A DNA stretch of 64,000 nucleotides, taken from assembly GCA_052139735.1 (NCBI GenBank), contig JBKQWB010000050.1, positions 8,337-72,336 of the forward strand, in the 5' to 3' direction. Numbering within the stretch: the stretch's first letter is position 1; every line of letters starts with the position of its first letter. Below are positions 15,046-25,592 of the stretch, in pieces. The notes beneath the pieces were generated by a model. The model did not search any database, was not told the DNA's origin, and was given only the letters and a program-made list of their open reading frames with translations. This DNA comes from Smithella sp. (GTDB taxonomy: Bacteria; Desulfobacterota; Syntrophia; Syntrophales; Smithellaceae). A program made the position numbers and the translations under genes.

Positions 15046-17223
15046 ATGACTTTTTACGCGCATTCAGAAAACAATTTTAAAGAAAGTCATCTACTATCTA
15101 ATCATTCAAAAGAGACAGCAACGATTGCGAAGTCTTTTGCTTGTAACGAAATCTATAAAGCAATATTCTATCTGACAGGTCTATTACATGATCTTGGAAA
15201 ATATCAGATGCCGTTCCAAAACTACCTAAAAAATGGTGGTGTGCGTGGCAGCGTTCCACATGCTTCTTGGGGGGCAGGATATGCCCGCTGCAAAGGTATG
15301 CTGGAAACATCTATCGTGATTGATGGCCATCATAAGGGCATCCCTGACAATTCTGCATGGAAGGGTGACACGGAACCATTCAAGCGCAATGAAGTCGACG
15401 GATTTGAAAACGTGCTTGGCGCTTTTATCGAAGATAACAGCTTCGATGAAAACATCTTTAATAAAGACATAATATCAGAAATACCAAAAACATCATCACA
15501 ACGGGAAGTATTTATCAGATATTTATTCAGTGCCTTGACGGATAGTGATTGGCTTTCTACTGAAAAGCATTTCAACAAGGATGCTTCCGCCATGCGTGTC
15601 TGCGCGCAGCTTGCTATTGATGAAATGACATGCAAATTAGAGAAGGCCTTTTCCGAAAAATCCACAGATGGTGATATTAACCGTATGCGGAATGAAGCGC
15701 GCCAGCAGGTGCTCCAAAAAGCCGGTTTGAGTTGTGGATTTTATTCGTTGACCCTTCCAACCGGTATGGGAAAAACGCTTATATCTATGGCGTGGGCTTT
15801 AAAACACGCAAAGATAAATCATTTAAAACGAATAATAATTGTTCTTCCTTTCGTGAACATCATTGATCAGACAGCACAGGTATTGAAAGACATATTTGGT
15901 GAAGAATGGATATTAGAGCATCACTCCGGATTCAATGAGGATGAGGATGCAACCAAGGATACCGAAGAAAGATATTCTCTTTTGGAGCAAAGAAAGAAAC
16001 TGGCCTGCGAGAATTGGAACTATCCAGTCATCTTGACGACTACTGTCCAATTCTTTGAGTCACTCTTCAGCAATAGACCATCAAGATGCCGGAAGATTCA
16101 CAATATTGCCGAGTCTGTGGTCATATTTGATGAAGTTCAAACGCTACCAAAGGAAATAATCTTACCCACCCTTCAGATGCTGAAAGATGTTCAGACAGTA
16201 ATGAGAACATCTTTTCTGTTCTGCACAGCGACACAACCCGCATTTGAAAAAAGAAAGGGGTTTGATGGTATCGATACCATATATCCTTTAATGGACAACC
16301 CTACCGAGATATACAGGGAAACAAAGCGTGTTAAATACAATTTATTGAATAATCTGGAACCTATAAATTCCAGTGATCTTCTAAATGCAGTTGTGAATGA
16401 AGCAACTTCGACGCTCGTCATATTCAACACTAAAAAGGCCGCATTGGAATTCTATAATTCTGCCGAAAATAGTGTGCAATGGGAAAGCAAGTATCATTTA
16501 TCGACGGCTATGTGTCCTGCACACAGAAAGAATGTCATAAAGAATGTCCGGGCTGATTTGGAAGCAGGGCGTAAAATCATTGTGTCTTCTACACAGTTGA
16601 TTGAGGCAGGTGTGGATTTTGATTTTCCGGTAGTGTTTCGCGCTATGGCTCCTCTTGAATCGATTATCCAGTCGGCAGGGCGCTGCAATCGGGAAAACAA
16701 ATTAGGCAAATCCGGTGGCAGAGTATTTCTATTCAAGATTATCGATGGCGGCATGCCGGATAAGACTTATGCTGCATGCGCAAGTCATGCAGAAGAGTTT
16801 CTTAGAACAGACATTGAACAGCTTCACAATCATCAATCATTCAATAAATACTATGCCCAAGTAGTTCAACTTTACGTTGACCCAGACAAACACAATATAA
16901 ATGCAACACGAAAAGCCTTTAATTTTAAAACGGTCAACGACGGTTATAGAATAATCAAGAATGCTACCGAAGGATTGTATATGTATAACTACAGCGATGA
17001 AAGCAGACAATTACGTCGTACGCTCGAATACAAGGAATTTTTATCTAAGGATGATTACCGGAAGATGCAGCCTTTTATAGTGCCCGTTTATAAGTCTTTT
17101 ATTATTCAAAATGGTTCAATGTGTAAAACAATGCCGCAAGGATTTATGGTTTGGTATGGCAATTATGATCAGCAAACAGGTATTTCAGTTGCACCCATTG
17201 ATGCGGATAAATTAATCGTATAA
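15046..17223 (+). CDS. cas3: CRISPR-associated nuclease/helicase Cas3 (type I-C)
   Basis: 725 aa. HD domain (LLHDLGKY, IDGHHKG, LTDSDW) fused to an SF2 helicase (LPTGMGKT, IFDEVQ, SAGRCNRE); first gene of the cas operon. Confidence 0.95.
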   Translation: MTFYAHSENNFKESHLLSNHSKETATIAKSFACNEIYKAIFYLTGLLHDLGKYQMPFQNYLKNGGVRGSVPHASWGAGYARCKGMLETSIVIDGHHKGIPDNSAWKGDTEPFKRNEVDGFENVLGAFIEDNSFDENIFNKDIISEIPKTSSQREVFIRYLFSALTDSDWLSTEKHFNKDASAMRVCAQLAIDEMTCKLEKAFSEKSTDGDINRMRNEARQQVLQKAGLSCGFYSLTLPTGMGKTLISMAWALKHAKINHLKRIIIVLPFVNIIDQTAQVLKDIFGEEWILEHHSGFNEDEDATKDTEERYSLLEQRKKLACENWNYPVILTTTVQFFESLFSNRPSRCRKIHNIAESVVIFDEVQTLPKEIILPTLQMLKDVQTVMRTSFLFCTATQPAFEKRKGFDGIDTIYPLMDNPTEIYRETKRVKYNLLNNLEPINSSDLLNAVVNEATSTLVIFNTKKAALEFYNSAENSVQWESKYHLSTAMCPAHRKNVIKNVRADLEAGRKIIVSSTQLIEAGVDFDFPVVFRAMAPLESIIQSAGRCNRENKLGKSGGRVFLFKIIDGGMPDKTYAACASHAEEFLRTDIEQLHNHQSFNKYYAQVVQLYVDPDKHNINATRKAFNFKTVNDGYRIIKNATEGLYMYNYSDESRQLRRTLEYKEFLSKDDYRKMQPFIVPVYKSFIIQNGSMCKTMPQGFMVWYGNYDQQTGISVAPIDADKLIV

Positions 17224-17236
17224 TCAGGAGGTGAGT

Positions 17237-18004
17237 ATGCTTGATAGTCGAATCGTAAGCGTAAAAGTAACAGGGGGCTTTGCCTGTTTTACTAGGCCTG
17301 ACCTGAAAGTTGAACGTATGACTTACCCATGTATGACGCCGTCGGCAGCGCGCGGTATTCTTGATTCCATTTTGTGGAAGCCAGAGTTTCAGTGGTATGT
17401 CAGAAGAATAATTGTTTTAAATCCCATCAGGTTTGCTTCGATCAAGCGAAATGAAATTAATACTAAGCAAGGCAAAACACCAATTGTTGTCGATGAAGTC
17501 GATATCGCGGGTAAACCAAAGTATCGCGCGCAAAGAAATAGTGTCACTTTAAGGGATGTAGCTTACGTCATTGAAGCATCAATTTATCAGAAACAATTAT
17601 CGGATAGAAACAAACCTGAAAAATATATTGGCCAAAAAGGCATTGACGCGGATCATGACGGCATATTTATCCGCCGTGTTAAAAAAGGGCAATGCTGGCG
17701 AAGGCCATATTTAGGCACACGTGAATTTGCCGCAGAGTTCATGGAGCCTCATGGCAAGGAACAACCAATAAAAGAAACAATACCCATTGGAAGCATGTTG
17801 TTTGATATATTCTATGATGCGAATGGTAAGCCTGAACCAGTATTCTTTCATGATGTAGCAATCCGCAATGGCGTTTTGAACTGCGAAGTACCGGAGAATG
17901 ACAAAATGATGCAGTCAAGCCATATGCAGCCACCAATAGACAGCGAAACTTCTTCCTTAATCTATGCATTTAACCAACAGGAAGAAAAGGAGGCTGCCTT
18001 ATGA
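17237..18004 (+). CDS. cas5: Cas5c (Cas5d) pre-crRNA-processing subunit, type I-C
   Basis: VKVTGGFACFTRPDLKVERMTYPCMTPSAARGILDSILWKPEF is the Cas5 I-C signature. ATG at 17237 lies 5 nt after AGGAGG; the track GTG at 17231 overlaps the RBS. Confidence 0.9.
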   Translation: MLDSRIVSVKVTGGFACFTRPDLKVERMTYPCMTPSAARGILDSILWKPEFQWYVRRIIVLNPIRFASIKRNEINTKQGKTPIVVDEVDIAGKPKYRAQRNSVTLRDVAYVIEASIYQKQLSDRNKPEKYIGQKGIDADHDGIFIRRVKKGQCWRRPYLGTREFAAEFMEPHGKEQPIKETIPIGSMLFDIFYDANGKPEPVFFHDVAIRNGVLNCEVPENDKMMQSSHMQPPIDSETSSLIYAFNQQEEKEAAL

Positions 18005-19773
18005 TCAAGGAATTAAGCGAACTAGGTAAAACGCTTCGTGCGCAGAAGGGTGACAATGAATGGATACATGATGCATTAAAACCTGAACCAATTTCAATGG
18101 AACTAATTATTACTGAGGATGGCAGTTTTCAAAGTTTCAATCTGATTGAAAAGAAACAGACTACTGCTGAAGCCATAACTGCAAAGAAAGGGAAAGCTCG
18201 TCTGTTGCTTGATAAAGCCGAAGAAGTCCTTTGCTATGGAGGTGCAGCATCAAAGAGTAAACACGACCTCTTTTTGAAAAAACTTGATGAGTATCGGGAT
18301 TTATCCGAACTGTCACCGATTATGAATTTTTATAAGGACAACAAGACCAATGGGGTGGAAATGGCATTGCAGGCTTTTGAGATATCCATCCCTGATGAAA
18401 AGAACAGGAAAGGCAATATCGGGTTTCGTATTCAATCCGAAGGGTGTCGCATACATGAGAAACCTGAAGTATTAAGGCTAATCATAACAAAGTACGAAAC
18501 CATGCAGAAAGACCTATTGACGAGTAAAAAGAAGAAATGTGCCATTTGTGGACAGAGTAAATATCCTGTGGAAGATATTCCGCATGGGATGATCAAGAAA
18601 GTGCCTGATGGTCAATCTAGCGGCAGCGCACTCGTTTCCTATAATGAATCGGCTTTTGAATCATATGGATTAGCGGGTAATGAAAATTCAGCCATATGCA
18701 CAAACTGCGCAAAAACTTACGTAGAGGGATTGAATTGGCTTCTATCAGCAGGTAACGAAGTTATTATCAAAACCAAAAAAGGAAAAGAAAAAACCTCATA
18801 CCGTTATACAAATCGAAGAAATTTCGGTTCAGATACGGCGATGGTATTTTGGACACGCCAAAACAGTTATATTAATGAAATAGATCAACTTGAAGCGCCA
18901 AATCCCGATGATGTGAGCAGATTGATTGAATCAGTAAATGCAGGCAAAGAAAAAGACAGCCGGTATTTAGAACCCGATCAGTTCTATTCATGCACGTTAT
19001 CCGGCGCTGCTGCACGCATTGCTGTGAGGGATTGGATTGAAACCAGTTTGTATGATTTTAGAAAATCAATAGCACAATGGTTTAAAGATATTTCCGTCAT
19101 GGAATATGATAGTGATTTAAAAATGTTAAAAACGCGTTATGCCGGATTATACAATCTGGCAAGAAGCTCGCAAAATACTAAAAATGATAAAGACGTGTCG
19201 CTGTCACGTACCGCTGCATATTTATGGAATTCGGCAATCAAAAACACACCACTACCTTTGTGGTTGCTAACGAAGGTTCTTCAGCGTGCGCGTTTAGATG
19301 AATATGGTGTTACTGCTGAACGTGCATCTTTGATTAAACTAATTTTAAATCGAAATAATAAAGGAGGTGATTTTATGGTTACAGAAAAAATGGAAGAAGG
19401 TCATAAACCAATTGCCTATGTTTGTGGGCAAATTTTCGCAAAATTGGAAAGTATCCAGTACGCTGCATTGGGGGATAGAAACGCAGGAATTCGGGAAAGA
19501 TATTTTACATATGCCATGACATCACCCGCTGCTGCATTTGGCCGTTTGTTTAATTTGCATTCAAAGCATTTTACTAAGCTTAGAAATGAAAAACCTGGGT
19601 TGGCAATTAATCTCGACAAAGAGCTTCAGCTATTATGCAAAGAGGTTGACATAAATAGTTTCCCGACCACTTTCATATTGGAGGAACAAGGCCAGTTTGC
19701 TATCGGCTATTATCATCAAAAACAGATGCAATTTAGCGGAGCTAAATCAAAAGAAAATAAGGAGGAAGAGTAA
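18001..19773 (+). CDS. cas8c: Cas8c (Csd1) large subunit, type I-C
   Basis: 590 aa. ATGA overlap with cas5, a position between cas5 and cas7, and the Cys pairs CAICGQ...CTNCAK are typical of Csd1. Confidence 0.9.
   Translation: MIKELSELGKTLRAQKGDNEWIHDALKPEPISMELIITEDGSFQSFNLIEKKQTTAEAITAKKGKARLLLDKAEEVLCYGGAASKSKHDLFLKKLDEYRDLSELSPIMNFYKDNKTNGVEMALQAFEISIPDEKNRKGNIGFRIQSEGCRIHEKPEVLRLIITKYETMQKDLLTSKKKKCAICGQSKYPVEDIPHGMIKKVPDGQSSGSALVSYNESAFESYGLAGNENSAICTNCAKTYVEGLNWLLSAGNEVIIKTKKGKEKTSYRYTNRRNFGSDTAMVFWTRQNSYINEIDQLEAPNPDDVSRLIESVNAGKEKDSRYLEPDQFYSCTLSGAAARIAVRDWIETSLYDFRKSIAQWFKDISVMEYDSDLKMLKTRYAGLYNLARSSQNTKNDKDVSLSRTAAYLWNSAIKNTPLPLWLLTKVLQRARLDEYGVTAERASLIKLILNRNNKGGDFMVTEKMEEGHKPIAYVCGQIFAKLESIQYAALGDRNAGIRERYFTYAMTSPAAAFGRLFNLHSKHFTKLRNEKPGLAINLDKELQLLCKEVDINSFPTTFILEEQGQFAIGYYHQKQMQFSGAKSKENKEEE
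19375..19773 (+). CDS. cas11: Cas11c small subunit from an internal in-frame start within cas8c
   Basis: AAAGGAGGTGA lies 4 nt (TTTT) upstream of the in-frame ATG at 19375 (codon 459), giving a 132-aa product MVTEKMEEGHKPIAYVCGQIF.... Type I-C systems are known to translate Cas11 internally from cas8c. Confidence 0.6.
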   Translation: MVTEKMEEGHKPIAYVCGQIFAKLESIQYAALGDRNAGIRERYFTYAMTSPAAAFGRLFNLHSKHFTKLRNEKPGLAINLDKELQLLCKEVDINSFPTTFILEEQGQFAIGYYHQKQMQFSGAKSKENKEEE

Positions 19774-19774
19774 A

Positions 19775-20644
19775 ATGAGGGAGCCAATAAAAAATCGGTA
19801 TGACTTTGTGTTTCTATTTGATGTTAAGGACGGCAATCCTAACGGTGATCCTGATCAGATAAATTTACCACGCGCTGATGCTGAAGACCAGCATGGCTTG
19901 GTAACGGATGTTTGTATTAAAAGGAAGGTAAGAAATTATGTAATGCTGGAAAGGGAACTAAAGACACCCTATGACATATTTATCAGACAGGAACAGATTC
20001 TAAACAAAATTATTGATTCAGCGGAAGGTAAAAACATAACACAACGACAAGATAGTTTATGTGAAAATTATTTTGATATAAGAACCTTTGGCGCTGTGCT
20101 CTCGACTGGTGATAAAGGTGCGGGAACAATTCGAGGGCCCGTGCAATTTACATTTTCACGTTCAGAAGATCGTATATATCAGGCCGAACACTCTATCACG
20201 CGTTGTGCAGTTACAACGGAGGAAGATGCCAAGAAACAAGAAAAAAGAGAGTTTGCATCTACGTTTGGCAGGAAATCAACAGTGCCATATGCGCTTTATA
20301 GGATGCACGGCTTTATTTCCGCTATTGATGCTAAGAAAACAAAGTTCTCTGAAGACGACCTTAAGTTACTTTGGAAATCGCTAATAAATGCTTTTGAAAA
20401 CGATCGTGCTGCCGCAAGAGGCGAGATGAACCCCATAAAGTTGGTTATATTTAAACACGACAGTCATTTGGGGAATGAATTATCAGGAAGATTATTTGAC
20501 CGTGTGACGGTTAAAAAAAATTCAGCCCTGCCCAGAGGAAAAGAAGATTATACGATCACTGTTAATAAGGACAATCTTCCATCTGATGATAAGAAAAAAC
20601 CATTGATTGAAATTAAAGAATGGCCGGAAGAAAAGATATTCTAA
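19775..20644 (+). CDS. cas7: Cas7c (Csd2) backbone subunit, type I-C
   Basis: ATG at 19775 follows an AAGGAGGA RBS. MREPIKNRYDFVFLFDVKDGNPNGDPD and IRTFGAV motifs are Csd2-like. The track start at 19697 overlaps cas8c. Confidence 0.9.
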   Translation: MREPIKNRYDFVFLFDVKDGNPNGDPDQINLPRADAEDQHGLVTDVCIKRKVRNYVMLERELKTPYDIFIRQEQILNKIIDSAEGKNITQRQDSLCENYFDIRTFGAVLSTGDKGAGTIRGPVQFTFSRSEDRIYQAEHSITRCAVTTEEDAKKQEKREFASTFGRKSTVPYALYRMHGFISAIDAKKTKFSEDDLKLLWKSLINAFENDRAAARGEMNPIKLVIFKHDSHLGNELSGRLFDRVTVKKNSALPRGKEDYTITVNKDNLPSDDKKKPLIEIKEWPEEKIF

Positions 20645-20678
20645 AACTTGTCGAACCGCCAAATGGCGCAAAACCGTC

Positions 20679-20720
20679 AATTAGGTAATAACTATTCAAT
20701 TAGGTAATAAATTAGGTAAT
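20679..20720 (+). repeat. Direct repeat copy A (42 bp) made of three (A)ATTAGGTAAT(AA) cores; its last core overlaps the cas4 ATG
   Basis: AATTAGGTAATAACTATTCAATTAGGTAATAAATTAGGTAAT; 39/42 identical to 22453-22494. Confidence 0.95.
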
Positions 20721-21369
20721 GACTGACGAACAGTATAACATCGACGACCTGATTCAGCTTTCCGCTTTGCAGCACTATGCTTTTTGTCCAAGGCAGTGCG
20801 CCTTGATTCATGTCGAGCAGGTCTGGGCGGAAAATCGTCTGACTGCCGAAGGACGCATCATGCATGAGCATGTGCATGAGGAAGGCGATGAATCGCGTGG
20901 TGATGTACACATCGAACGCGGCGCGTCATTGCGATCTTTGCGGTTGGGGCTAATCGGCAAATCGGATGTAGTTGAATATCACCGTCAGGCCGATGGAAGC
21001 TGGCAGGCTTTTCCGGTTGAATACAAACGAGGCAAGCCTAAGATTGATGAAAGCGATAAAATTCAGCTCTGCGCTCAGGCTCTTTGCCTGGAGGAAATGC
21101 TCAATGCCTCTATTCCCGCTGGCGCGCTTTTCTATGGCAAAACCAGGCGGCGTCTTGACGTTGACTTTAATGAAACGCTAAGACAGGAAATGGAAGCTGC
21201 GGCAATTAAAACGCATGAATTGATTGATGCTGGTATTACACCTGCGCCGGTCTATGCCAAACGTTGTGAAAGCTGTTCGCTGATAGCCGAATGTATGCCG
21301 AAGACTATGCAGAAAAAAAGATCAGTTGAAAGTTACCTGAAACGAATGTTGGATGAAATAGAAAATTAA
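20719..21369 (+). CDS. cas4: Cas4 (RecB-like nuclease with a 4Fe-4S cluster)
   Basis: 216 aa. N-terminal Cys (HYAFCPRQCAL) plus C-terminal CESCSLIAEC ligands; DVVEY...VEYKRGK nuclease motif. Confidence 0.9.
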   Translation: MTDEQYNIDDLIQLSALQHYAFCPRQCALIHVEQVWAENRLTAEGRIMHEHVHEEGDESRGDVHIERGASLRSLRLGLIGKSDVVEYHRQADGSWQAFPVEYKRGKPKIDESDKIQLCAQALCLEEMLNASIPAGALFYGKTRRRLDVDFNETLRQEMEAAAIKTHELIDAGITPAPVYAKRCESCSLIAECMPKTMQKKRSVESYLKRMLDEIEN

Positions 21370-21411
21370 CGCAGAGAGCGTAAAAAAAAACGAAGGAGTG
21401 ATTCTACAAAT

Positions 21412-22458
21412 ATGATGACATTAAAAAAGTTTTGCTTGGAACTTGACGCGGTTCCAATCACAACGTCATGGTATCTCACGGAGATAAGTGAGGCAAAAGG
21501 AAGGCAACAGCTTTATACAAAACAATCGCCGCAGAGATTGAAGTCTCTAAAAGAACATGCCCTCATTGAGAGTGCGGTTTCGTCCAATCGTATTGAGGGC
21601 GTGGAGGTTGATAACAAGCGTGTGGGCACTGTTGTTTTCGGCAAATCACTTCTTCATGATCGCTCCGAGGAGGAGATCAGAGGCTATAGAAATGCGTTAA
21701 AACTTATTCATGATAATGGGGCAAAGTTATCCATAACGCAGGAAACAATCAAGAAATTGCATGGGCTGACACGCGGCGAAATTTGGGATGCCGGAAAATA
21801 TAAAGAAAAGAATAGCGATATCATTGAAAAACATCGGAACGGCAAATCTACTGTAAGATTCAAAACTATTACGGCAGACAGGACTACTGCGTGTATGAGG
21901 CAGTTGGTTGATTCCTGGCAGGCGTCCCTAAAATCATCGAAGATTTCTCCGCTGATAGTTCTGGCGGCATTCAATCTTGATTTCTTGTGCATTCATCCTT
22001 TCCGTGATGGAAACGGCAGGGTGTCCCGTCTTTTGCTGTTGTTGCAATGTTATCATTTGGGATTTGAGGTCGGCAGATTTATAAGCCTTGAACGAATAAT
22101 CGAACAGAACAAAGAAAGATACTATGAGACATTGAAACTAAGTTCAGAAAGATGGCATGAGGGGAAACATGATCCCTGGCACTATATCAACTATATTTGT
22201 TTTGTTCTCCGAAGCGCCTATAAGGAATTTGAAGAAAGACTGGATATGTTGCCGCAGCCGCGGGGCGAAAAAACGGCAATGATTCACGATGCGATAAAAG
22301 GATATGCAGGCGCATTCAGTGTCGCTGATATACTGCAAAAATATCCCGGAATTAGCATTGATCTGGTTCGTAAAACTTTGAAGGATATGCAGGCTGAAAG
22401 TATTGTTGAATGTATTGGACGTGGCCGTAGCGCAAAATGGCGGAAAAAATTAAATTAG
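21412..22458 (+). CDS. Fic-family protein (class II, with an N-terminal inhibitory helix) and a C-terminal winged-helix domain, embedded between cas4 and cas1
   Basis: 348 aa. Fic motif HPFRDGNGRVSR; SNRIEG matches the (S/T)xxxE(G/N) alpha-inh motif about 140 aa upstream; the tail ESIVECIGRGRSAKWRKK is wHTH-like. It has its own AAGGAG RBS at 21393. Confidence 0.9.
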   Translation: MMTLKKFCLELDAVPITTSWYLTEISEAKGRQQLYTKQSPQRLKSLKEHALIESAVSSNRIEGVEVDNKRVGTVVFGKSLLHDRSEEEIRGYRNALKLIHDNGAKLSITQETIKKLHGLTRGEIWDAGKYKEKNSDIIEKHRNGKSTVRFKTITADRTTACMRQLVDSWQASLKSSKISPLIVLAAFNLDFLCIHPFRDGNGRVSRLLLLLQCYHLGFEVGRFISLERIIEQNKERYYETLKLSSERWHEGKHDPWHYINYICFVLRSAYKEFEERLDMLPQPRGEKTAMIHDAIKGYAGAFSVADILQKYPGISIDLVRKTLKDMQAESIVECIGRGRSAKWRKKLN

Positions 22459-22494
22459 GTAATAACGATTATATTAGGTAATAAATTAGGTAAT
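22453..22494 (+). repeat. Direct repeat copy B (42 bp); it contains the fic stop codon and is followed by one more ATAGGTAAT core (22506-22514) abutting the cas1 ATG
   Basis: AATTAGGTAATAACGATTATATTAGGTAATAAATTAGGTAAT; 39/42 identical to 20679-20720. Confidence 0.95.
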
Positions 22495-22515
22495 AGGCCG
22501 TCGGTATAGGTAATT

Positions 22516-23547
22516 ATGAAAAAACTTCTTAATACTTTGTATGTAACGACACAGGGCGCGTATCTTGCCAAGGAAGGCGAAACTGTTGTGGTCAAGGTTA
22601 ATCAGGAAATCCGATTGCGTGTGCCAGTGCACACTATCGGCGGTATTGTCTGTTTTGGCAACGTATCTTGCAGTCCGTTTTTGATGGGATTTTGCGGTGA
22701 AAACGGAGTCGGCATCAGCTTTTTATCCGAGTATGGCCGTTTTCTGGCGCGTGTGCAGGGACCTGTGTCCGGCAATGTCCTATTGCGCCGCGAACAATAC
22801 CGAAAAGCGGATGATCGGGAATATTCTGCGCAGATGGCTAAATCGTTCGTTACCGGCAAGATTGCCAACTGCCGGACAGTGCTCCAGCGGGTGCTAAGAG
22901 ATCATGCCCAAAAACTGGATGAAGATACGCTTCGCCGAAGCATTTCTGACCTGAGCCATTCGCTTGCATCACTTGATTTGAATCAGTCACTCGATACCGT
23001 ACGCGGCTTGGAAGGCGACGCTGCGCACACCTATTTCAGCGTCTTTGATCATTTGATTATCGCGCAAAAAGAAAGTTTTAATTTTCAGGAGCGCAATCGT
23101 CGCCCGCCGTTGGATAATGTTAATTGCCTGCTTTCTTTTATTTACATGCTGCTCATGCACGATATTCGTTCCGCGCTGGAATCAGTCGGCCTTGACCCGG
23201 CAGTCGGTTTTCTTCATCGGGATAGACCCGGCAGACCCAGCCTGGCATTGGACATGATGGAAGAATTCCGGCCATTTCTAGCGGATCGCCTGACACTTTC
23301 TCTGATCAATCTGCGGCAGGTGCAGGATAAAGGTTTTAATAAAACGGCAGCGGGTGCGGTTGCGATGAACGATGAAACAAGAAGAACACTGCTTGTGGCC
23401 TATCAGGAAAGAAAGCAGGAAGAAATTTATCATCCTTTTTTGGATGAAAAAGTAACAATCGGATTGTTGTTTCATGTGCAGGCATCGCTTATGGCGCGCT
23501 GTCTGCGCGGTGATCTGGATGGCTATCCACCGTTTATCTGGAAATAA
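22516..23547 (+). CDS. cas1: Cas1 integrase (type I-C)
   Basis: 343 aa. LNTLYVTTQGAYL N-terminus, GLEGDAAHTYF, and HRDRPGRPSLALDMMEEFRP catalytic-region motifs. Confidence 0.95.
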   Translation: MKKLLNTLYVTTQGAYLAKEGETVVVKVNQEIRLRVPVHTIGGIVCFGNVSCSPFLMGFCGENGVGISFLSEYGRFLARVQGPVSGNVLLRREQYRKADDREYSAQMAKSFVTGKIANCRTVLQRVLRDHAQKLDEDTLRRSISDLSHSLASLDLNQSLDTVRGLEGDAAHTYFSVFDHLIIAQKESFNFQERNRRPPLDNVNCLLSFIYMLLMHDIRSALESVGLDPAVGFLHRDRPGRPSLALDMMEEFRPFLADRLTLSLINLRQVQDKGFNKTAAGAVAMNDETRRTLLVAYQERKQEEIYHPFLDEKVTIGLLFHVQASLMARCLRGDLDGYPPFIWK

Positions 23548-23559
23548 GGAGGAATAAAA

Positions 23560-23850
23560 TTGCTTGTTCTGGTCAGTTACGATGTCGCCATGCAGGACGA
23601 AAGAGGGCCGAAGCGTTTGCGTAAGGTAGCCAAGACCTGTCAGAATTACGGTCAGCGGGTTCAGTATTCTGTTTTTGAATGTATTGTTGATCCCGCGCAA
23701 TGGACTGTTTTAAGAGAACGGCTGATTGATGCAATAAATCCTGAAGAAGATAGTCTGCGATTTTATTTTCTTGGTTCTAATTGGCGCAAGCGTGTGGAAC
23801 ATATTGGCGCGAAAAAGTCAATTGATCAGGAAGGTCCGTTGATCGTGTAA
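23560..23850 (+). CDS. cas2: Cas2
   Basis: 96 aa. MLVLVSYDV start (TTG, 6 nt after AAGGAGG), YGQRVQYSVFEC core, immediately upstream of the leader and array. Confidence 0.9.
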   Translation: MLVLVSYDVAMQDERGPKRLRKVAKTCQNYGQRVQYSVFECIVDPAQWTVLRERLIDAINPEEDSLRFYFLGSNWRKRVEHIGAKKSIDQEGPLIV

Positions 23851-24034
23851 AAGCTATCCGCGAACCTGAAGCTGACAAGAGTCAGTAAATAGCTTCGCGG
23901 ACTAAGTAATCTATTTGAATTATTGATATTTTTTAAATGATCTTTGAAAACTGAAGATAAATGATTTTTTAAAATCAGCGATTCGCGAAATATGAAGATA
24001 TTAAATAGTATTAACAATTAATTAGAAGTAAACA
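23851..24034 (+). promoter_or_regulatory. CRISPR leader (AT-rich, 184 bp)
   Basis: AT-rich stretch between the cas2 stop and the first repeat. It contains three TTCGCG(A/G)A-like motifs. Confidence 0.7.

Positions 24035-25592
<1,558 letters not shown>

What the first reader, a model, noticed from the sequence alone, without database searches (positions are those of the whole stretch)
21412..22458. Auto-inhibited Fic (AMPylase-type) gene with a wHTH tail wedged between cas4 and cas1 of a type I-C system
The canonical I-C order cas3-cas5-cas8c-cas7-cas4-cas1-cas2 is otherwise intact and compact. A 348-aa co-oriented ORF splits the adaptation module. It carries a complete Fic active site (HPFRDGNGRVSR), an upstream SNRIEG that fits the (S/T)xxxE(G/N) intramolecular inhibitory helix of class II Fic proteins, and a basic winged-helix-like C-terminus. 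It has its own AAGGAG RBS and looks compositionally different from cas4 and cas1. Fic is not part of any I-C definition I know. Possible roles (inference): a regulator or post-translational modifier of adaptation proteins, an abortive-infection back-up released when CRISPR fails, or an addiction module that stabilises the locus.
Basis: partly seen in the sequence, partly recalled or inferred. Interest (0 to 1): 0.75.

Follow-up and report, generated by a model that had tools for sequence, protein, structure and literature searches.

The report
Fic toxin gene recurrently embedded in CRISPR operons
A self-inhibited Fic (AMP-transferring) enzyme gene sits between cas4 and cas1 here, and close relatives sit at the same end of many other type I CRISPR operons, each followed by its own short DNA repeats, so it is a recurring CRISPR passenger whose role is still untested.

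Summary
ORF 21412-22458 (+) encodes a 348-aa class II Fic protein with HPFRDGNGRVSR, an upstream SNRIEG inhibitory motif and a C-terminal winged-helix. It lies between cas4 and cas1 of a complete type I-C system.

It is not a one-off. In a tree of 163 homologues, every cas-linked gene falls in one clade (at least 67% identical to this Fic). Of 21 lineages in that clade, 19 lie inside or beside cas loci. The layouts are I-C cas7-Fic-cas4, I-C cas4-Fic-cas1, I-E cas6e-BroN-Fic-cas1e, and a divergent type I. Among about 93 outgroup lineages only one is within 10 kb of cas genes.

Fic travels with cas4-cas1-cas2 when effector modules are swapped. It is under purifying selection (dN/dS about 0.09). 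It is optional, because 4 of 6 sister Cas1c lineages lack it. It stays intact after the cas genes are lost.

One unreported feature emerged. Arrays of 2-4 direct repeats (here TAGGTAAT) begin at the Fic stop codon, and their sequence co-varies with winged-helix residues across the family.

Most likely this is a SoFic-like, DNA-binding AMPylase toxin carried as a second-layer defence by the adaptation end of cas operons. A direct role in adaptation is not excluded. The addiction-module and crlRNA-supervised readings are disfavoured.

The parts
21412..22458 (+). Fic gene (348 aa): class II Fic AMPylase-type protein with a C-terminal winged helix
   Evidence: ORF; Pfam Fic 52.3 bits, PADLOC SoFic E 5e-32; closest solved structure 8uqu at E 3e-86
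21583..21600 (+). Codons for S58-N-R-I-E62-G63, the (S/T)xxxE(G/N) inhibitory motif
   Evidence: Sequence. SSNRIEG(V/I) is kept in 45/45 clade members and 117/118 outgroup members
21994..22029 (+). Codons for the Fic active-site motif HPFRDGNGRVSR (H195-R206)
   Evidence: Sequence. Identical in 44/45 clade members
22267..22446 (+). C-terminal winged-helix region (about residues 286-345)
   Evidence: AF2 secondary structure H286-296, H304-310, H316-328, E332-334, E342-345; full-length Foldseek alignments to the Fic+wHTH structures 8cil, 4rgl, 7xux and 3zcn; weak Pfam DIP2311-like_C hit
21393..21398 (+). AAGGAG Shine-Dalgarno-like hexamer, 13 nt upstream of the Fic ATG
   Evidence: Sequence
22456..22514 (+). 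Array of four direct TAGGTAAT repeats (22456, 22475, 22487, 22507). The first contains the Fic stop codon TAG. The last supplies AGGT just before the cas1 ATG
   Evidence: 7 copies in the window against 1.25 expected, all in two clusters. Conserved at the same offsets across the clade
20656..20684 (+). Relic of the 3' end of a second, deleted Fic gene (..AKWRKTVN*)
   Evidence: Aligns with the Fic 3' coding ends of L102 and others. blastn links window 20658-20720 to the L102 Fic-cas4 junction
20680..20720 (+). Second array of three TAGGTAAT repeats (20682, 20701, 20713), immediately upstream of and overlapping the cas4 start codon
20719..21369 (+). cas4
   Evidence: Pfam Cas_Cas4 85 bits; TIGR00372 140.8 bits
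22516..23547 (+). cas1 (type I-C)
   Evidence: TIGR03640 cas1_DVULG 536 bits against a cut-off of 385
23560..23850 (+). cas2
   Evidence: Pfam CRISPR_Cas2 97 bits
15046..20644 (+). Type I-C effector module cas3-cas5c-cas8c-cas7. It is a swapped cassette relative to strain L001
   Evidence: There is no nucleotide similarity to L001 across this stretch although both flanks match at about 95%. It is 92% identical to L102
24035..25592 (+). CRISPR array with 24 identical 32-nt repeats GTCGCGCCCCGCGCGGGCGCGTGGATTGAAAC

Best explanation
Shown. The gene encodes a class II Fic enzyme. The inhibitory glutamate helix lies N-terminal to the catalytic core in the same chain, and a winged-helix domain follows the core. 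It belongs to a large, very conserved family related to the SoFic anti-phage toxin. One clade of that family is a recurrent passenger of the adaptation end of type I CRISPR operons. Fic sits directly upstream of cas4 or cas1, is co-oriented with them, and is usually only 32-64 nt from the next cas gene. It is exchanged together with cas4-cas1-cas2 when effector modules are swapped, and it is under purifying selection. Each copy carries 2-4 direct repeats that start at its stop codon. The repeat sequence co-varies with residues of the winged helix.

Inferred. The protein is a normally auto-inhibited AMPylase (possibly also a deAMPylase) toxin that is transcribed with the cas genes. It acts as a second-layer, abortive-infection-type defence alongside CRISPR immunity. 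Its winged helix binds the cognate repeats as DNA, or possibly as RNA. By analogy with the DNA-regulated Fic enzymes CbFic2 and CccR, that binding would tune its activity, and perhaps also the expression of the cas4/cas1 genes that start right after the repeats.

Fic is not needed for basic I-C function and does not need Cas proteins. The window's own locus is a recombinant. It combines an L102-like effector cassette that once carried a Fic upstream of cas4 (now a 29-nt relic) with an L001-like cas4-Fic-cas1-cas2 module.
For: Identity. Pfam Fic is above cut-off and the PADLOC SoFic model matches at E 5e-32. PDB 8uqu matches at E 3e-86, and Foldseek hits include the Fic+wHTH structures 8cil (CbFic2), 7xux, 4rgl and 3zcn (SoFic). 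The catalytic and inhibitory motifs are invariant.

Recurrence. Thirty of the first 164 loci had I-C cas hits around Fic. Eight more proved to be type I-E. All of them fall in one clade of the tree. In that clade 19 of 21 lineages clustered at 90% identity are cas-linked, against 1 of 93 outgroup lineages. On raw locus counts the Fisher test gives p = 7e-33.

Several independent placements exist:
- cas7-Fic-cas4 in I-C
- cas4-Fic-cas1 in the window group, and separately in L105
- cas3-Fic-cas4 in a divergent type I system (L114, L118)
- cas6e-BroN-Fic-cas1e in I-E

Linkage to the adaptation module. Fic dN correlates with Cas1 and Cas2 dN (rho 0.41 and 0.40) but not with Cas7 or Cas3 dN (0.09 and 0.15). 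L001 keeps cas4-Fic-cas1-cas2 at 91% nucleotide identity while its effector cassette is unrelated.

Selection. Median pairwise dN/dS is 0.09, the same as Cas4.

Operon context. No sigma-70-like promoter or terminator is predicted on the + strand between cas7 and cas2. The gap downstream of Fic has a median of 51 nt.

Independence from Cas. Fic is intact in L085, L087 and L088, where only stubs of cas4 and cas1 and one CRISPR repeat remain. In L089, L003 and L004 Fic follows a type IIG restriction-modification gene.

Repeats. In the clade 44/44 loci have at least 2 copies just downstream of Fic, and 0/41 have any in the 92 nt upstream. Sister I-C loci without Fic have none. Three or more copies of a 9-mer occur downstream in 74/160 loci, upstream in 7/156, and inside the ORF in 0/160. 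Residue 339 is R with TAGGTA (46/53), Q with TGGGTA (15/21) and P with [AG]GGGTA (29/30). Residue 316 is I/V/L with T[AG]GGTA and R/K with the G-rich units.

Precedents. SoFic is toxic, dimeric and dependent on its C-terminal domain (PMC12249575). CbFic2 is activated by DNA binding, and CccR binds specific DNA (PMC10628234).
Against: No experiment exists for this clade. Toxicity, AMPylation, anti-phage activity and DNA binding are all inferred.

Similarity to SoFic itself is limited. The NCBIfam SoFic equivalog scores 44.6 bits against a cut-off of 550, and phmmer aligns only the core to 3eqx/3zcn at E 1e-8.

The strict placement beside cas4/cas1 in two unrelated adaptation modules (I-C and I-E) is not predicted by a purely autonomous defence gene. 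It fits a functional tie to adaptation at least as well.

Many cas-linked loci may descend from a few insertion events, so the counts are not independent. The co-variation between repeats and the winged helix is confounded by shared ancestry.

The repeats lie downstream of the gene. Autoregulated toxins such as CccR have their sites in their own promoter.

The AF2 model has low confidence over the inhibitory-helix region, residues 59-83.
Confidence: 0.5

Rival explanations
1. Fic is a dedicated accessory factor of spacer acquisition. It would AMPylate or deAMPylate Cas1, Cas2, Cas4 or a host factor used in adaptation. Alternatively, by binding the repeats just before cas4/cas1, it would gate expression of the adaptation genes so that acquisition happens only in certain states.
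For: Every embedded copy lies immediately upstream of cas4 or cas1 and never elsewhere in the operon. This holds in I-C, in I-E (which has no cas4 and an unrelated Cas1 lineage) and in a divergent type I system. Fic is inherited with the adaptation module rather than the effector module. The repeat arrays abut the start codons of cas4 and cas1. In many loci a long gap upstream of Fic (median 189 nt) makes it the first gene of a possible Fic-cas4-cas1-cas2 unit.
Against: Members of the same clade stay intact without any cas gene (L085, L087, L088) or sit beside a restriction-modification gene (L089, L003). The repeats accompany Fic in non-cas contexts across the whole family, so they are a Fic feature and not a cas feature. 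Four of six closely related Cas1c lineages work without Fic. The wider family of 93 outgroup lineages is not cas-linked.
Confidence: 0.2
2. Fic is a selfish or neutral hitchhiking cassette consisting of the ORF plus a 3' junction element. It inserts into operons of defence genes without disrupting them. The effector/adaptation boundary is simply a permissive recombination hot spot, and Fic contributes nothing to CRISPR immunity.
For: The cassette boundaries are sharp: the start codon at one end and about 45 nt of repeats at the other. It occurs after a type IIG restriction-modification gene, in I-C at two positions, and in I-E. Other passenger genes (Bro-N, RhuM) pile up at the same junction. 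The window shows turnover, with one Fic deleted and another present. Its presence among sister loci is patchy.
Against: dN/dS of 0.09 with invariant catalytic and inhibitory residues at about 30% protein divergence shows that the protein's own activity is selected. No recombinase or transposase travels with it. No close relative occurs in viral or plasmid collections, where identity is at most 44%. A neutral passenger would be expected at varied positions and orientations rather than always co-oriented just upstream of cas4/cas1.
Confidence: 0.2
3. Fic is an addiction (toxin) module that stabilises the CRISPR locus because Cas proteins or crRNA-like RNAs keep it in check. This would resemble CreTA, or the crlRNA-supervised 'CRISIS' systems described inside I-C operons.
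For: It is a toxin-type gene inside a cas operon. A preprint reports defence genes embedded in I-C operons that are repressed by Cascade guided by crRNA-like RNAs, and it mentions Fic genes probably controlled by I-F systems (10.1101/2024.12.27.630466).
Against: No solitary or degenerate CRISPR repeat exists outside the array in the 64-kb window, allowing up to 3 mismatches in 18 nt. The intergenic spaces of 42 and 57 nt leave no room for such a unit or for a separate promoter. The position differs from the cas3-cas5c site of CRISIS systems. In L085, L087 and L088 the cas genes are gone yet Fic is intact, so loss of the cas genes is tolerated.
Confidence: 0.05

Closest known systems
SoFic (Shewanella oneidensis / E. 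coli class II Fic AMPylase; single-gene anti-phage defence system)
   Same: The architecture is the same: an N-terminal helical region carrying the inhibitory (S/T)xxxE(G/N) motif, a Fic core with HxFx(D/E)GNGRxxR, and a C-terminal wHTH. The PADLOC SoFic model matches residues 34-323 at E 5e-32. Foldseek aligns the model to 3zcn/3eqx over about 360 columns.
   Different: The sequence relationship is distant. The NCBIfam SoFic equivalog scores 44.6 against a cut-off of 550, and phmmer aligns only the core at E 1e-8. There is no AS1-like small ORF downstream, because only 57 nt separate Fic from cas1. This Fic is embedded in cas operons and carries a co-varying 3' repeat array, which is not reported for SoFic. 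No defence phenotype has been tested.
PDB 8uqu, Fic family protein of Bordetella bronchiseptica (N-terminal domain)
   Same: It is the closest solved relative, at E 3e-86 over residues 22-346, and has the same motifs SSNRLEGV and HPFPDGNGRMSR. It is the top Foldseek hit.
   Different: Its function is uncharacterised and no paper was found. Its genomic context was not examined.
CbFic2 (Coxiella, PDB 8cil) and CccR (Yersinia pseudotuberculosis): DNA-binding class II Fic enzymes with wHTH
   Same: Both have the Fic + wHTH architecture and appear among the structural hits. They set the precedent that DNA binding through the wHTH controls (de)AMPylation (CbFic2) and that such a protein can bind specific sequences (CccR) (PMC10628234).
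   Different: CccR's sites are palindromes in its own promoter. Here the candidate sites are direct repeats at the 3' end, with none upstream. The targets (histone H3, FtsZ) and the biology (secreted effectors) are unrelated to CRISPR.
CRISIS, CRISPR-supervised immune systems embedded in type I-C cas operons (bioRxiv 10.1101/2024.12.27.630466)
   Same: They are defence-type genes located inside type I cas operons. The preprint also mentions Fic genes linked to I-F systems.
   Different: Those systems sit between cas3 and cas5c, have their own promoter, and are repressed by a crRNA-like RNA from a solitary repeat unit. Here the site is the cas7/cas4/cas1 junction, no solitary repeat unit is present and no separate promoter is predicted.
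Suicide effectors embedded in restriction-modification operons, such as the PrrC anticodon nuclease in the EcoprrI locus (from general knowledge, not tested here)
   Same: The concept is a latent toxin carried inside the operon of a primary defence system as a back-up. Members of this Fic clade also sit directly after a type IIG restriction-modification gene.
   Different: There is no evidence that Cas proteins hold Fic inactive or that phage anti-CRISPRs release it. The enzyme class is different.

Membership tests
Fic/DOC (Fido) superfamily, PF02661 | Profile match above the curated cut-off | tested here: met
   52.3 bits against a cut-off of 24, residues 108-211
Fic/DOC (Fido) superfamily, PF02661 | Active-site motif HxFx(D/E)GNGRxxR | tested here: met
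   HPFRDGNGRVSR at residues 195-206; conserved in 44/45 clade members and 103/118 outgroup members exactly
Class II Fic (intramolecular inhibition) | (S/T)xxxE(G/N) motif in the same chain, N-terminal to the Fic core | tested here: met
   S58-N-R-I-E62-G63 lies 133 residues before H195. It is invariant in the family. The protein is collinear with the PADLOC SoFic model (34-323 against 41-317)
Class II Fic (intramolecular inhibition) | The motif lies on a helix that places the glutamate in the ATP gamma-phosphate site | tested here: inconclusive
   The AF2 model has pLDDT below 50 over residues 59-83 and does not model a helix there
SoFic anti-phage defence system | Match to the defence-system profile | tested here: met
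   PADLOC PDLC03963 SoFic, E 5e-32, 109.7 bits
SoFic anti-phage defence system | Orthology to SoFic (NCBIfam equivalog NF046030) | tested here: not met
   44.6 bits against a cut-off of 550
SoFic anti-phage defence system | Protects cells from phage; toxic when de-repressed | not testable with these tools
   Requires phage plaque assays and toxicity assays
Type I-C CRISPR-Cas (the host system) | cas3, cas5c, cas8c, cas7c, cas4, cas1c and cas2 plus a CRISPR array | tested here: met
   NCBIfam subtype models for Cas5c, Cas8c, Cas7/Csd2 and Cas1c all score above their cut-offs. The array has 24 repeats
CRISIS (crlRNA-supervised systems in cas operons) | Non-cas defence gene inside a type I cas operon | tested here: met
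CRISIS (crlRNA-supervised systems in cas operons) | Solitary repeat unit giving a crRNA-like RNA that targets the gene's promoter | tested here: not met
   No repeat-like sequence occurs outside the array at up to 3 mismatches in 18 nt. The intergenic spaces are 42 and 57 nt
Locus-addiction toxin-antitoxin (CreTA-like) | Loss of the cas genes is not tolerated while the toxin is present | tested here: not met
   L085, L087 and L088 keep an intact Fic with only cas4 and cas1 stubs and one repeat
Sequence-specific DNA-binding Fic regulators (CccR-like) | Fic domain plus C-terminal wHTH | tested here: met
Sequence-specific DNA-binding Fic regulators (CccR-like) | Binding sites in its own promoter (autorepression) | tested here: not met
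   No motif copy lies in the 92 nt upstream in 41/41 clade loci and 113/116 outgroup loci. The sites lie downstream
Sequence-specific DNA-binding Fic regulators (CccR-like) | Specific binding of the wHTH to the repeats | not testable with these tools
   Only covariation is available. This needs EMSA, footprinting or ChIP
Type III toxin-antitoxin (RNA-repeat antitoxin) | Tandem RNA repeats next to an endoribonuclease toxin that processes them | tested here: not met
   The repeats are 8-12 nt units downstream of the gene, and the toxin is a Fic enzyme, not an RNase. No Rfam family matches

The most novel reading that the evidence does not exclude
A clade of Fic AMPylases has been recruited as a genuine ancillary component of type I CRISPR adaptation modules (I-C and I-E). 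It would be a sequence-specific nucleic-acid-binding enzyme that recognises its own co-evolving repeat array placed directly in front of cas4/cas1. That would couple AMPylation, of Cas or host factors, to expression or activity of the spacer-acquisition machinery. This would be a previously undescribed regulatory layer of CRISPR adaptation.
Probability: 0.15. Interest if true: 0.85.

Novelty: new variant of a known kind. Interest (0 to 1): 0.62.

Why it matters
Accessory genes are well documented for type III CRISPR systems. They are rarely reported for the adaptation end of type I systems, and how adaptation is controlled is poorly understood.

This finding gives a well-defined clade of a toxin-type enzyme that is conserved and under purifying selection. 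It has repeatedly settled directly upstream of cas4/cas1 in two unrelated adaptation modules. That makes two ideas directly testable. One is that CRISPR operons carry their own abortive-infection back-up. The other is that AMPylation regulates spacer acquisition.

Separately, the repeat array that co-varies with the winged helix suggests a cognate nucleic-acid ligand for a whole family of SoFic-like Fic proteins, whose trigger and regulation are unknown.

Tried and rejected
- I searched for a solitary CRISPR repeat or crRNA-like unit near Fic and found none.
- The sigma-70 promoter and intrinsic-terminator scan around Fic found nothing on the + strand between cas7 and cas2, and the overall counts match the shuffled controls.
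- An Rfam scan of 20000-24200 returned only CRISPR repeats below threshold.
- Plasmid, phage and IMG/VR collections hold only relatives at or below 44% identity, so there is no sign that the clade is phage- or plasmid-borne. Two distant plasmid homologues lack the 3' repeats.
- Literature: no Fic is mentioned in the main text of the CRISPR-linked-gene survey (10.1101/270033) or of the rare-CRISPR survey (PMC10910872). No paper was found for 8uqu. The terms CRISPRicity plus Fic returned nothing.
- The upstream neighbours of 96 outgroup Fic genes show no conserved partner. The commonest families each occur 5 times in 96: the type I restriction-modification S subunit, SNF2/helicase domains and NOV_C.
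- A first translation of the stretch upstream of the L102 Fic used the wrong frame. It was corrected.
- The AF2 model is only moderately confident (pLDDT 72) and is poor at the inhibitory helix, so it was not used for fine structural claims.
- The idea that the repeats form a conserved hairpin was dropped. An inverted copy exists in some subfamilies but not in the window clade.
Full report
**1.

The window has an ATG-started ORF at 21412..22458 (+) of 348 aa. It contains HPFRDGNGRVSR (residues 195-206) and SNRIEG (residues 58-63). Pfam Fic/DOC scores 52.3 bits against a cut-off of 24. A weak, sub-threshold wHTH hit (DIP2311-like_C) covers residues 310-345.

The PADLOC model of the SoFic defence system matches residues 34-323 at E 5e-32. 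The NCBIfam SoFic equivalog is far below its cut-off, at 44.6 against 550. The protein is therefore SoFic-like, not a SoFic orthologue.

The neighbouring genes are, in order and all on the + strand, cas3, cas5c, cas8c, cas7, cas4, [fic], cas1c and cas2. The subtype-specific NCBIfam models score above their cut-offs. An array of 24 identical repeats lies at 24035-25592.

The AAGGAG hexamer is real but lies 13 nt from the ATG. The compositional contrast is modest: GC is 0.426 for fic, 0.48 for cas4 and cas1, and 0.439 for the window.

**2. The protein**

The family is very large, with more than 7,788 database proteins at E below 1e-10. It is unusually conserved, with about 70% identity among many 348-aa proteins labelled Deltaproteobacteria, Syntrophus, Desulfobacterium and so on. 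A GTDB scan found relatives at 54-72% identity in at least 588 stretches from many phyla.

The closest solved structure is 8uqu (Bordetella bronchiseptica Fic family protein, E 3e-86). The SoFic structures align only over the catalytic core by sequence.

An AlphaFold model (pLDDT 72) has a C-terminal helix-helix-helix-strand-strand unit, which is typical of a winged helix. It is unreliable over residues 59-83, the inhibitory-helix region. Foldseek's best hits are 8uqu, followed by the full-length Fic+wHTH proteins 8cil (CbFic2), 4rgl, 7xux and 3zcn (SoFic), and then FICD.

The catalytic and inhibitory motifs are essentially invariant in 163 homologues.

**3. It is not a one-off insertion**

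I fetched 80 loci from species genomes and 80 from metagenomes, ranked by similarity to this Fic. I then searched their ORFs with the window's Cas proteins.

- Thirty loci had I-C cas genes around Fic.
- A further subgroup that these queries missed turned out to be type I-E. Its order is Cse1-Cse2-Cas7e-Cas5e-Cas6e, a Bro-N protein, Fic, Cas1e and Cas2e, confirmed by Pfam.
- In a neighbour-joining tree, all cas-linked genes fall in a single clade defined by at least 67% identity to the window Fic. About 118 loci at or below 64% identity have none, apart from one (L163) with an I-E locus 4 kb away.
- After clustering the clade at 90% identity, 19 of 21 lineages are in cas loci or in decayed cas loci. 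The other 2 directly follow a type IIG restriction-modification gene. Only 1 of 93 outgroup lineages is near cas genes. On raw locus counts the Fisher test gives p = 7e-33, although the loci are not independent.

**4. Position and linkage**

The commonest order is cas3-cas5-cas8c-cas7-Fic-cas4-cas1-cas2. The window's order, cas4-Fic-cas1, recurs in L001, L002 and L086, and in a different Fic sub-branch in L105. L114 and L118 have a divergent type I effector layout (cas5, an unrecognised large subunit, cas7, cas3) followed by Fic-cas4-cas1-cas2.

The gap from the Fic stop to the next cas gene is short (median 51 nt). The upstream gap is variable (10-623 nt, median 189), so in many loci Fic may head a Fic-cas4-cas1-cas2 unit.

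Fic follows the adaptation module in evolution.
- L001 is the same chromosomal locus as the window, with flanks about 95% identical. Its cas4-Fic-cas1-cas2 is 91% identical, yet its cas3-cas7 cassette shows no nucleotide similarity.
- L102 has an effector cassette 92% identical to the window's, but a Fic only 70% identical, placed upstream of cas4.
- Pairwise dN of Fic correlates with that of Cas1 and Cas2 (rho 0.41 and 0.40) and not with Cas7 or Cas3 (0.09 and 0.15).

The correlation is imperfect because there were several captures. The window's Fic is closest (82%) to the Fic genes linked to the restriction-modification gene. Its cas4 and cas1 are 90% identical to those of L102, whose Fic is only 70% identical.

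**5. A relic in the window**

The 75 nt between cas7 and cas4 contain the last 29 nt of a Fic ORF (..AKWRKTVN*), followed by three TAGGTAAT repeats. This aligns with the Fic-cas4 junction of L102.

The window locus is thus a recombinant. It has an L102-like effector cassette whose Fic was deleted, joined to an L001-like cas4-Fic-cas1-cas2 module. Only one intact Fic copy is left.

**6. Selection, dispensability and independence**

Median pairwise dN/dS is 0.09 for Fic, 0.09 for Cas4, 0.06 for Cas1 and 0.05 for Cas2.

I also sampled from the Cas1 side, which is unbiased with respect to Fic. Of six Cas1c relatives at 81-91% identity, two carry Fic: P0134 (cas7-orf-Fic-cas4-BroN-cas1) and P0215 (cas7-Fic-cas4-cas1). 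Four have the plain compact operon. Fic is therefore an optional accessory. Source names for these Cas1 proteins suggest Smithellaceae/Syntrophaceae.

In L085, L087 and L088 (Fic 95-96% identical) only about 120 bp of the cas4 3' end, 60-180 bp of the cas1 5' end and a CRISPR repeat remain around an intact Fic. This argues against an addiction role and shows that Fic does not need Cas proteins.

**7. An unexpected conserved element**

TAGGTAAT occurs 7 times in the window against 1.25 expected. All copies are on the + strand, in two clusters: 20682-20720 before cas4 and 22456-22514 after Fic. The first copy of the second cluster contains the Fic stop codon, and the last provides AGGT before the cas1 ATG.

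In the clade, 44/44 loci have at least 2 copies at fixed offsets (-2, +17, +29) just after Fic. This includes the I-E loci and the non-cas loci. None have copies upstream of Fic, and I-C sister loci without Fic have none. The element is almost invariant between genes whose synonymous sites are saturated.

Across the whole family a repeat array is always there, but the unit changes with the subfamily. Examples are TGGGTAAT, GAGGGTAAT, CTAGGTATT and GGTGGTAAT, and all copies within a locus change together. Three or more copies of a 9-mer occur downstream in 74/160 loci, upstream in 7/156 and inside the ORF in 0/160.

The unit type tracks winged-helix residues.
- Residue 316 is I/V/L with T[AG]GGTA and R/K with the G-rich units.
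- Residue 339 is R with TAGGTA (46/53), Q with TGGGTA (15/21), P with [AG]GGGTA (29/30) and A with GTGGTA (3/3).

This is confounded by phylogeny, but it is the pattern expected for a cognate protein-nucleic acid pair. There are precedents. CbFic2's wHTH binds DNA and this switches its (de)AMPylation activity, and CccR binds specific sequences (PMC10628234). SoFic's C-terminal domain is required for toxicity (PMC12249575). No Rfam family matches the element. Homologues at about 42% identity lack it.

**8. Readings considered**

The best-supported reading is a SoFic-like, normally auto-inhibited AMPylase toxin carried and probably co-transcribed by the adaptation end of cas operons as a second-layer defence. 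No promoter or terminator is predicted around it. Its winged helix would bind its own 3' repeats.

A dedicated role in adaptation is the main rival. It is favoured by the strict placement next to cas4/cas1 in two unrelated adaptation modules. It is weakened by the cas-free and restriction-modification-linked members and by the Fic-less sister loci.

A selfish-cassette reading explains the sharp boundaries and the turnover. It does not explain the strong purifying selection or the constant position and orientation.

The CRISIS model (defence genes in I-C operons repressed by crRNA-like RNAs; 10.1101/2024.12.27.630466) is the nearest published concept, and that preprint mentions Fic genes near I-F systems. 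Its defining solitary repeat unit is absent here and the insertion site differs.

**9. Novelty**

The protein type is known (class II Fic, SoFic-like), and so is the idea of defence genes nested in cas operons. I could not find any description of three things:
- a Fic clade tied to the adaptation module of I-C and I-E systems;
- its co-inheritance with cas4-cas1-cas2;
- the repeat array that co-varies with the winged helix.

The library does not cover all journals. I therefore rate this as a new variant of a known kind.

Noticed in passing
window 22456-22514 and 20680-20720; all Fic loci L001-L164: Arrays of 2-4 short direct repeats begin at the Fic stop codon in essentially every family member. 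The repeat unit differs between subfamilies and tracks winged-helix residues 316 and 339. No Rfam match.
   Followed up: yes
window 20656-20684: A 29-nt relic of the 3' end of a second Fic gene (..AKWRKTVN*) lies between cas7 and cas4. It shows that an upstream Fic copy was deleted.
   Followed up: yes
window 15046-20650 compared with L001 3937-9332: Two strains share the same chromosomal locus (flanks about 95% identical) and the same cas4-Fic-cas1-cas2 (91%). Their type I-C effector cassettes are completely different. The window's cassette is 92% identical to that of L102.
   Followed up: partly
L093 8990-9811; L102 11723-12622; L169 3155-3979; L097 859-1893: A 273-aa Bro-N domain gene, and in places a RhuM-family gene, repeatedly accompany Fic at the effector/adaptation junction. 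In I-E the order is cas6e-BroN-Fic-cas1e. In I-C it is Fic-cas4-BroN-cas1.
   Followed up: partly
L085 1505-2908; L087 266-1546; L088 841-2121: An intact Fic (95-96% identical) is flanked only by stubs of cas4 and cas1 and a single CRISPR repeat, in an unrelated genomic context. The cas locus has been lost while Fic was kept.
   Followed up: partly
L102 9837-9995 (also L169, L114, L105, L119; fragments in L100, L101): A conserved 52-aa very basic ORF (MAQQVKKSEHSGSKKGRGAYWGRKK...) has a stop codon that overlaps the Fic start codon. It occurs in a subset of loci and is absent from the window. It may be a small partner or regulator.
   Followed up: partly
L089 6965-9853; L003 2-1234; L004 3-1346: The nearest non-CRISPR relatives of the window's Fic (82% identical) sit directly after a roughly 960-aa Eco57I/MmeI-type (type IIG) restriction-modification gene. 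This is another defence gene.
   Followed up: partly
L118 378-6731; L114 207-3516; L174 1-3357: A divergent type I effector layout (cas5, an unrecognised large subunit of about 730 aa, cas7, cas3) is joined to a typical I-C cas4-cas1-cas2 module. The subtype models score below their cut-offs. Only the cas7 and cas3 part is seen in L114 and L174.
   Followed up: no
L001 1-2837: In strain L001 a phage-type integrase, an HTH_17 (excisionase-like) gene and a ParA/CbiA-like gene lie just upstream of the cas3 leader region. The window has housekeeping-looking genes there instead.
   Followed up: no
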